Origin: Octopus vulgaris
Lineage: Eukaryota
Length of the DNA: 64,000 nucleotides
Assembly (NCBI GenBank): GCA_951406725.2
Contig: OX597842.1
Location: forward strand, 2,728,001 to 2,792,000
Direction of reading: 5' to 3'
In this document: piece by piece, positions 8,250 to 8,622 of the stretch
How positions within the stretch are numbered: the stretch's first letter is position 1
Layout: each line of letters begins with the position of its first letter
The notes under the pieces: model-generated
The model's input: only the letters and a program-made list of their open reading frames with translations
The model's database searches: none
Told to the model about the DNA's origin: nothing
Program-made: the position numbers and the translations under genes

Positions 8250-8622
8250 ACGTAAAGTATACTAGCCATCCCAATATGGCTAACCACAAAGGGTGGGTGT
8301 TACTGTAGCTTTTAGCCCCTGGAGATCATCGTCTCCAGCTGGCTTTAGGCACACTATCTGTGCCCTTATGGTATTTGCAAAGGGAGGCCATCCCTTTCTC
8401 GTACGGTCAATCAAAATGTGACTGCGTGTGTACCGTTGGCGATTTTTTTTCCTCTGTCTTCCCTTCTTTGGATCTTTCCTTCTCCTATGTTTCCAACGAA
8501 GAGCTCCGCTCGAAACATTAAACCCTCCTTCTTTCTTTCTTTCCTGAGCATCCAATAATACTATATTTGTTCCACGTCCTCGCGTTGTTGTGTTTTTTTG
8601 TGCTTTCTTGTTTGGATTAACT
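8250..8622. mobile_element. Penelope-like/TA-embedded non-coding element with hairpin motif and decayed minimal hammerhead
   Basis: Flanked by (TA)n; gtttCCAACGAAgagctccgctcGAAACATTaaac at ~8488-8523 resembles a PLE-type minimal type I hammerhead eroded at CpG sites. Confidence 0.55.

What the first reader, a model, noticed from the sequence alone, without database searches (positions are those of the whole stretch)
8263..8390. Multi-hairpin motif conserved by covariation in three divergent TA-embedded elements
Seen at 8263-8390, ~14098-14212 and ~46303-46412. Read on the opposite strand each gives hairpin 1 (GGGCACA/UGUGCCU; GAUGCA/UGUGUC; GACACA/UGUGUC), then an AGC(C)...(G)GCUAA-closed hairpin 2 (CUGGAGA/UCUCCAG; AGAGGC/GCCUCU; AGGAGGCG/UGCUUCCU), then CAGCGG/AGCUAC, then hairpin 3 (UAGCCAU/AUGGCUA; UAGUCU/AGACUA; UACUGUCA/UGACAGUA). 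Stem sequences differ but pairing is kept. The mismatches in hairpins 1-2 are A-C on the plus strand and G-U on the minus strand, which suggests a strand-specific single-stranded function. I do not recognise it as a known Rfam family. Inference: an RT-recognition/priming signal or an undescribed structured RNA of these elements.
Basis: partly seen in the sequence, partly recalled or inferred. Interest (0 to 1): 0.7.

Follow-up and report, generated by a model that had tools for sequence, protein, structure and literature searches.

The report
Folded RNA signal in Penelope-like ends
A multi-hairpin RNA fold, whose base pairs are kept across three diverged repeat families, sits at the ends of what are likely Penelope-like jumping genes in an octopus-like genome, and it likely tells the element's reverse transcriptase where to bind and start copying.

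Summary
All hairpins named are present on the minus strand at the three sites. A fourth, inverted copy lies at 46443-46567. The fold is larger than reported: a long-range helix (H4) pairs the segment after GCUAA with the element's tail and shows 2 compensatory pairs between copies 2 and 3.

Public contigs of four organisms hold over 1000 matching pieces of family 3 each. Variants fall at 4 of 80 paired and 15 of 72 unpaired positions, and all 4 keep the minus-strand pair.

The context fits Penelope-like (PLE) pseudo-LTR ends: (TA)n flanks, a head-to-head inverted copy, two 3' ends about 55 nt apart, and in copy 2 a minimal hammerhead 60 nt upstream on the same strand.

Best reading (0.6): the cis RNA element that the PLE protein binds and that sets the internal start of reverse transcription, as mapped biochemically for the anole Poseidon element. 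Function is inferred, not shown. No ORF is linked, copy 1's hammerhead-like site is on the other strand, and no homologue was found outside those organisms. There is no Rfam match, and eight paper searches found no description of this fold.

The parts
8263..8365 (-). copy c1 of the motif: H1, H2 (AGCC/GGCU base plus inner stem), GCUAA linker, H3
8379..8397 (-). extra upstream hairpin H0 in c1 (7 bp, pair probability 0.93); not shown to be conserved
8250..8262 (-). short 3' end of c1; joins (TA)n 19 nt after the start of the H3 3' arm, the same register as c3b
8489..8523 (+). degenerate minimal type I hammerhead-like site (core position 5 is A) in the right half of the c1 insert, opposite strand to the motif
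8250..8623 (.). whole c1 insert between TA tracts; left and right halves are not homologous
14240..14280 (-). minimal type I hammerhead, U3-A8 core variant, palindromic stem III, GUC cleavage triplet ending at 14245, 60 nt upstream of H1
   Evidence: variant described in PMC4209133
14099..14185 (-). copy c2 of the motif: H1, H2, GCUAA, H4 5' strand 14127-14121, hairpin 14117-14099
14030..14098 (-). c2 3' part with H4 3' strand (14059-14053) and H5 (14050-14038), then AT-rich sequence into a TA tract
46303..46407 (-). copy c3a of the motif: H1 46407-46389, H2 46386-46354, H4 5' strand 46348-46340, H3 46332-46303
46236..46291 (-). about 55-nt tail present in c3a and absent from c3b; holds H4 3' strand (46283-46275), H5 (46270-46256) and a terminal hairpin; ends at (TA)n
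46443..46567 (+). c3b: inverted, 5'-truncated, tail-less fourth copy, head to head with c3a (3 differences in 125 nt), ends at (TA)n

Best explanation
The motif is a conserved, likely RNA-level multi-helix fold at the 3' end of likely Penelope-like (PLE) pseudo-LTRs, and it likely serves as the site that the element's reverse transcriptase-endonuclease binds and that positions the start of target-primed reverse transcription. Inferred steps: the element RNA is the minus strand here; H1, H2 and the invariant AGC/GCUAA face dock the protein; helix H4 joins the segment after GCUAA to the tail and closes a loop holding H3 and an A/C-rich single strand; a nicked (TA)n end primes either inside that loop (short end: c1, c3b) or at the far end of the tail (long end: c2, c3a); priming from both target strands gives the head-to-head pair in c3. 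Shown directly: the helices, their conservation, the two ends, the TA flanks and the hammerhead motif in c2. Binding and priming are not shown.
For: PLE-type anatomy: TA tracts on both sides of all three inserts, and an inverted 5'-truncated copy in c3, as PMC8557442 describes for PLEs. Two 3' ends about 55 nt apart in c3. The short end recurs: AT-rich loose ends before 46289 in 11 contigs of run X2, and tail depth 0.36-0.64 of core depth in 4 of 4 runs. c1 and c3b both stop 19 nt after the start of the H3 3' arm. Same-strand minimal hammerhead 60 nt upstream in c2. In the anole Poseidon element the region needed for activity lies mostly 3' of the hammerhead, RT starts internally in an A/C-rich stem loop, the tail is the stretch between two RT starts, and both target strands are cut and extended (PMC11167929). 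Structure conserved: 6 of 27 pairs compensatory, 3 one-sided, 1 broken. H4 has 2 compensatory pairs in register in a sequence-only alignment and none in six slid controls. In family 3 across four organisms, variants at or above 3% hit 4 of 80 paired and 15 of 72 unpaired positions (Fisher p 0.006); 4 of 4 keep the minus-strand pair and 2 of 4 would break it on plus.
Against: No RT or GIY-YIG sequence is linked: 149 of 210 candidate frames were scanned and none hit such a Pfam family; two protein searches found nothing. Only 1 of 3 families shows a same-strand hammerhead. In c1 the hammerhead-like site is on the opposite strand, in a non-homologous half; c3 is truncated before that point. The tail (about 55 nt) is longer than the 30-40 nt in print. 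H4 alone is weak: a helix as long arises in 8-10% of shuffled tails, and with two sequences the shuffle control is uninformative (131/500). 4 of 4 pair-keeping variants has chance 0.09 under transitions; copies are related, so the Fisher value is optimistic. The depth step may partly be an edge effect. c2 folds no better than shuffles. The fold of the Poseidon RNA (its supplementary figures) could not be seen.
Confidence: 0.6

Rival explanations
1. The fold acts at another RNA step of the same elements: it protects, exports or helps circularise the hammerhead-cut RNA (retrozyme-like), or holds the weak dimeric hammerhead in a cleavable state, without setting the RT start.
For: It lies 60 nt 3' of the hammerhead in c2. 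Minimal PLE hammerheads are weak and are proposed to need help or to yield circles (PMC4209133). Animal retrozymes are proposed PLE derivatives (bioRxiv 10.64898/2026.07.22.740005). RNA-strand conservation fits equally well.
Against: No tandem hammerhead-bearing repeats of these families in the window. The short end is in register with H3 in two families and H4 brackets it, which ties the fold to where copying starts.
Confidence: 0.14
2. The hairpins act as single-stranded or cruciform DNA, recognised by the GIY-YIG endonuclease while the insertion intermediate is resolved.
For: PMC11167929 reports that the D. virilis Penelope endonuclease needed the tail sequence in plasmid DNA. DNA folding is possible on both strands.
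Against: 5 G-U cells among the compared pairs and 2 population variants that make G-U pairs favour the RNA-sense strand. On the first cDNA strand these would be A-C mismatches.
Confidence: 0.1
3. The motif is a self-cleaving ribozyme of an undescribed class (GCUAA recalls, from memory, the J4/2 strand of HDV-like ribozymes) that trims the element RNA.
For: Invariant unpaired GCUAA and AGC in 3 of 3 families. Retroelements often carry small ribozymes.
Against: No Rfam ribozyme at E up to 10. My HDV-like descriptor found nothing on either strand of the three inserts (written from recall, no positive control). c2 already has a hammerhead. The fold is a string of hairpins plus one closing helix, with no pseudoknot shown.
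Confidence: 0.08
4. The inserts are ends of another TA-targeting element class (not PLE), and the fold is that class's terminal signal.
For: No PLE ORF linked. The c1 arrangement is unexplained. Ten-to-twelve-base core words were absent from the Naiad, Chlamys and Hydra consensus files of PMC8557442.
Against: Inverted truncated copy, optional tail, TA targets and a minimal palindromic hammerhead together match published PLE hallmarks. [quoted passage not shown]
Confidence: 0.08

Closest known systems
Poseidon PLE of Anolis carolinensis (PAc): region 3' of the hammerhead with internal RT starts (PMC11167929)
   Same: Order hammerhead, structured region, internal start in an A/C-rich segment, tail, second start; AT-rich targets; both strands primed.
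   Different: There the region is coding (first 172 nt of the ORF) and only an 'AC-rich stem loop' is named in the text I read, with no covariation analysis. Here indels vary freely, the region looks non-coding, the tail is about 55 nt and pairs back through H4.
Minimal type I hammerheads of metazoan PLE pseudo-LTRs (PMC4209133)
   Same: c2 carries such a motif with palindromic stem III and the U3-A8 core variant reported for Schistosoma PLEs; c1 has a degenerate one.
   Different: The finding is the multi-helix region 3' of the hammerhead, not the hammerhead itself.
Naiad and Hydra PLE clades (PMC8557442), both with Octopus members and (TA)n targets
   Same: (TA)n targets, inverted truncated copies, tails.
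   Different: Naiads lack canonical hammerheads. The listed Hydra hammerheads have a longer stem III than c2. Core words of the motif were not found in their consensus files.
3' RNA recognition structures of non-LTR elements (R2 3' UTR, LINE/SINE stem-loops) and the telomerase RNA template region (recalled, not tested)
   Same: A conserved RNA fold next to the template start that recruits the RT.
   Different: No Rfam match. Here initiation would be internal and enclosed by a helix formed with downstream RNA.

Membership tests
Penelope-like element (EN+) pseudo-LTR | adjacent ORF with PLE-type RT and GIY-YIG endonuclease | tested here: inconclusive
   None in the window (149 of 210 frames scanned). 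All copies are short 5'-truncated ends and no genome is held.
Penelope-like element (EN+) pseudo-LTR | inverted 5'-truncated copy at the 5' end | tested here: met
   c3a/c3b head to head; 1 of 3 inserts
Penelope-like element (EN+) pseudo-LTR | optional tail at one end (30-40 bp in print) | tested here: met
   About 55 nt in c3a, absent in c3b; recurrent short end in contigs. Longer than published.
Penelope-like element (EN+) pseudo-LTR | minimal type I hammerhead on the sense strand | tested here: inconclusive
   Met in c2; opposite strand and degenerate in c1; c3 truncated
Penelope-like element (EN+) pseudo-LTR | AT-rich or (TA)n insertion sites | tested here: met
   3 of 3 inserts have TA tracts at both ends
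Penelope-like element (EN+) pseudo-LTR | partial tandem arrangement around an ORF | not testable with these tools
   No whole genome or long loci of these families available
Known self-cleaving ribozymes and other Rfam families | match to a covariance model | tested here: not met
   0 at gathering score in the window. At E up to 10 only weak unrelated hits, plus miRNA-hairpin models on the c3 inverted repeat, all below gathering.
HDV-like ribozyme | nested double pseudoknot P1-P2-P3-P1.1-P4 with J4/2 cytosine | tested here: not met
   Descriptor written from recall found none on either strand of the three inserts; no positive control run
Non-LTR retrozyme | tandem repeats with a type I hammerhead in each unit | tested here: not met
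   No tandem units of these families in the window; other loci not testable
Naiad or Hydra clade | sequence match of the 3' end to published consensus | tested here: inconclusive
   Exact 8-12 base words only; Octopus Naiad 3' ends read by eye show no such motif; line breaks can hide words

The most novel reading that the evidence does not exclude
PLE reverse transcriptases, the sister group of telomerase, use a dedicated non-coding RNA scaffold: H1-H2 with the invariant AGC/GCUAA face docks the enzyme, and helix H4 clamps the tail around an internal template start, much as telomerase RNA frames its template. Closed versus open H4 would explain the long-unexplained optional PLE tail, and c1 would record two different element RNAs primed from the two strands of one target site. 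The 180-nt fold would be a portable cis signal for RT-driven insertion into TA repeats.
Probability: 0.3. Interest if true: 0.8.

Novelty: new variant of a known kind. Interest (0 to 1): 0.52.

Why it matters
PLE transposition is poorly understood, and the RNA determinant for RT binding and for the two start sites has been mapped only by truncation in one element. A covarying fold with a helix that links the tail to upstream RNA gives specific disrupt-and-restore mutants to test what sets the start sites and why the tail is optional. It bears on how telomerase-like RTs recognise their RNA. A covariance model would also help classify the many ORF-less TA-embedded repeat ends in these genomes.

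Tried and rejected
Whole-genome search: none held.

Pattern scans: viral contigs 0, 0 and 40 hits; prokaryote genomes 0 and 0; metagenomes 12 hits. 0 of 12 metagenome loci pass the descriptor, best model score 18 bits. Among the 40 viral loci only one core-only hit, without H1 or H3. The best model hit L032 (19.3 bits) lies in a phage reading frame and has z 0.57. All judged chance.

Covariance model R1 finds only its 4 training copies in the window (73-81 bits; next 13.4).

Protein searches with frames over c1 and c2 found nothing; they were meant to show whether the c1 junction recurs or c2 runs into an ORF. HDV-like and twister readings: no support. Upstream homology of c1 and c2 beyond the CCCU run was not supported. 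A possible pseudoknot or switch between an upstream purine run and the pyrimidine run before H3 was seen by eye in c1 and in low-agreement loose ends of family 3; not tested, not claimed.

Expression: no RNA holder listed, and only contigs were laid. Supplement word searches in PMC11167929 gave nothing; its figures S1B and S2C, which show the Poseidon RNA fold, could not be seen and may bear on novelty. Earlier-findings look-ups by sequence, place and six words gave nothing.

Full report
Setting. The window is microsatellite- and SINE-rich eukaryotic DNA without a recognisable gene. No genome is held. I call it octopus-like from recall of its repeats; no call names the organism.

Observation. 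A descriptor (H1, an AGC-closed H2 ending in RGCUAA, H3) hits four sites: c1, c2, c3a and a fourth copy c3b on the plus strand. It hits once in 300 shuffled windows; the core alone hits 32 times. The descriptor was written from the copies. The three cores are 66/114, 74/119 and 65/114 identical. Of 16 H1 and H2 pairs, 4 are compensatory, 3 change on one side, 8 are constant and 1 is broken (register set by me after MAFFT). Rfam gives nothing at gathering score and nothing relevant at E up to 10. A covariance model built from the four copies finds no fifth in the window.

Limits of the observation. Energy does not choose the strand, and c2 is no more stable than its shuffles (z -0.55), whereas c3a (z -3.86) and c1 (z -3.06) are.

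The fold is larger than reported. In c3a the nine bases after the GCUAA linker (46348-46340) pair with 46283-46275; in c2 seven bases (14127-14121) pair with 14059-14053 (pair probabilities 1.0 and 0.98). In a sequence-only alignment this helix, H4, has 2 compensatory pairs of 7, and six slid controls have none. With two sequences this is suggestive only: the shuffle control gives 131/500, and a helix as long appears in 8-10% of shuffled tails. A short hairpin H5 follows in both copies. c1 and c3b end before the H4 3' strand.

Population evidence. Words of c3a are held by 23 of 24 listed runs (20 with half or more), from 11 studies and five organism labels. Laying four runs of four organisms gave 2518, 1453, 1449 and 1070 contigs, so this is an abundant repeat family. 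All 4 keep the pair on the minus strand and 2 would break it on plus; 4 of 4 has chance 0.09. None lies in H4. Of 6 indel places, 5 are unpaired and one is at the edge of H3. Copies are related, so these p values are optimistic.

Element anatomy. All three inserts have TA tracts at both ends. c3 is a head-to-head pair: c3a (46236-46435) and an inverted, shorter c3b (46443-46567, 3 differences in 125 nt). c3a has about 55 extra 3' bases. The short end recurs: 11 contigs of X2 have AT-rich loose ends before 46289, and tail depth is 0.36-0.64 of core depth in 4 of 4 runs (edge effects may contribute). c1 and c3b both join TA 19 nt after the start of the H3 3' arm. Family 3 continues 5' of 46435 in other copies, so c3a is truncated. 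c2 has a minimal type I hammerhead on the motif strand, with a U3-A8 core and palindromic stem III, cleaving 60 nt before H1. c1 has a degenerate hammerhead-like site on the opposite strand, in a right half unrelated to its left half. I could not tell whether c1 is a one-off chimera or a family (one search found nothing).

Comparison with print. PMC8557442 (passages, sections 6, 7, 15, 20, supplement parts 1-2 and word searches) describes PLE insertions as 5'-truncated, often with an inverted copy, a 30-40 bp tail at one end and (TA)n targets. PMC4209133 (parts 1-2 of 4) describes minimal dimeric hammerheads in pseudo-LTRs, including the U3-A8 variant. PMC11167929 (parts 1-2 of 4) shows for the anole Poseidon element that the first 172 nt of the ORF, mostly 3' of the hammerhead cut, are needed, that RT starts internally in an AC-rich stem loop, that the tail lies between two RT starts, and that both strands are cut and extended. 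Also seen: bioRxiv 10.64898/2026.07.22.740005 (part 1 of 5), and passages of PMC13282606, PMC7229834 and PMC2377424. Eight searches found no description of a covarying multi-helix structure in PLE pseudo-LTRs. Subscription journals, Repbase and Dfam notes and the Poseidon supplementary figures were not seen.

Mechanism. Shown: the helices, their conservation, TA flanks, the inverted copy, two ends and the c2 hammerhead motif. Inferred: the inserts are PLE pseudo-LTR ends; the minus strand is the element RNA; the protein binds H1-H2 and the invariant AGC/GCUAA bases; H4 closes a loop holding H3 and an A/C-rich strand; a nicked TA end primes inside that loop (short end, perhaps helped by a UAU match to the TA primer in c3) or beyond H5 (long end). 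Confidence 0.6. Rivals: another RNA-level role such as stability, circularisation or hammerhead help (0.14); DNA-level endonuclease recognition (0.10); a new ribozyme (0.08); a non-PLE element (0.08).

What failed. No homologue turned up in viral, metagenome or prokaryote collections; the 52 pattern hits behave as chance. No RT or endonuclease could be linked, so PLE membership rests on anatomy and the clade is unknown.

Verdict. A real, conserved, strand-biased structure at the ends of likely PLE elements, not in Rfam and not found in print by my searches. It is a new structural variant within a known element class, and its function is inferred by analogy. Interest 0.52.

Noticed in passing
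window 9035-9224 and 9882-10071 (+); related 54421-54613 (-): A 190-nt direct repeat (99.5% identical) bounded by TA tracts flanks a 657-nt spacer; a 72% identical relative lies at 54.5 kb. It looks like a partial-tandem pseudo-LTR of another family, with a hammerhead-like stretch near 9119-9145 that did not pass my scan. No motif copy inside (best 13.4 bits).
   Followed up: partly
window 8430-8623 (+): The right half of the c1 insert has a degenerate hammerhead-like site and a U-rich 3' end into TA. It is unrelated to the motif-bearing left half and joined head to head without a TA spacer; possibly two element RNAs primed at one site.
   Followed up: partly
window 1821-1917: A TA-bounded 97-nt piece that by eye resembles the 3' end of the c1 right half; BLAST did not report it.
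   Followed up: no
window 46333-46338 (loose ends): A subfamily of family 3 seen in 4 of 4 runs (20-23 contigs each) carries extra sequence between the H4 5' strand and H3 that can form a small hairpin, where c1 and c2 also have an extra hairpin.
   Followed up: no
window 46381-46386 and 46352: Variants within family 3 reproduce c2-like letters at the base of H2 and after GCUAA, suggesting a continuum between the families.
   Followed up: partly
window 36182-36577 (+): A frame that resembles, from recall, the C-terminal part of a mariner transposase; no Pfam hit at E 0.01.
   Followed up: partly
L032 155-1141 (+): A phage reading frame that looks, from recall, like an endonuclease or intein-type insert; a chance hit of the motif pattern.
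   Followed up: no
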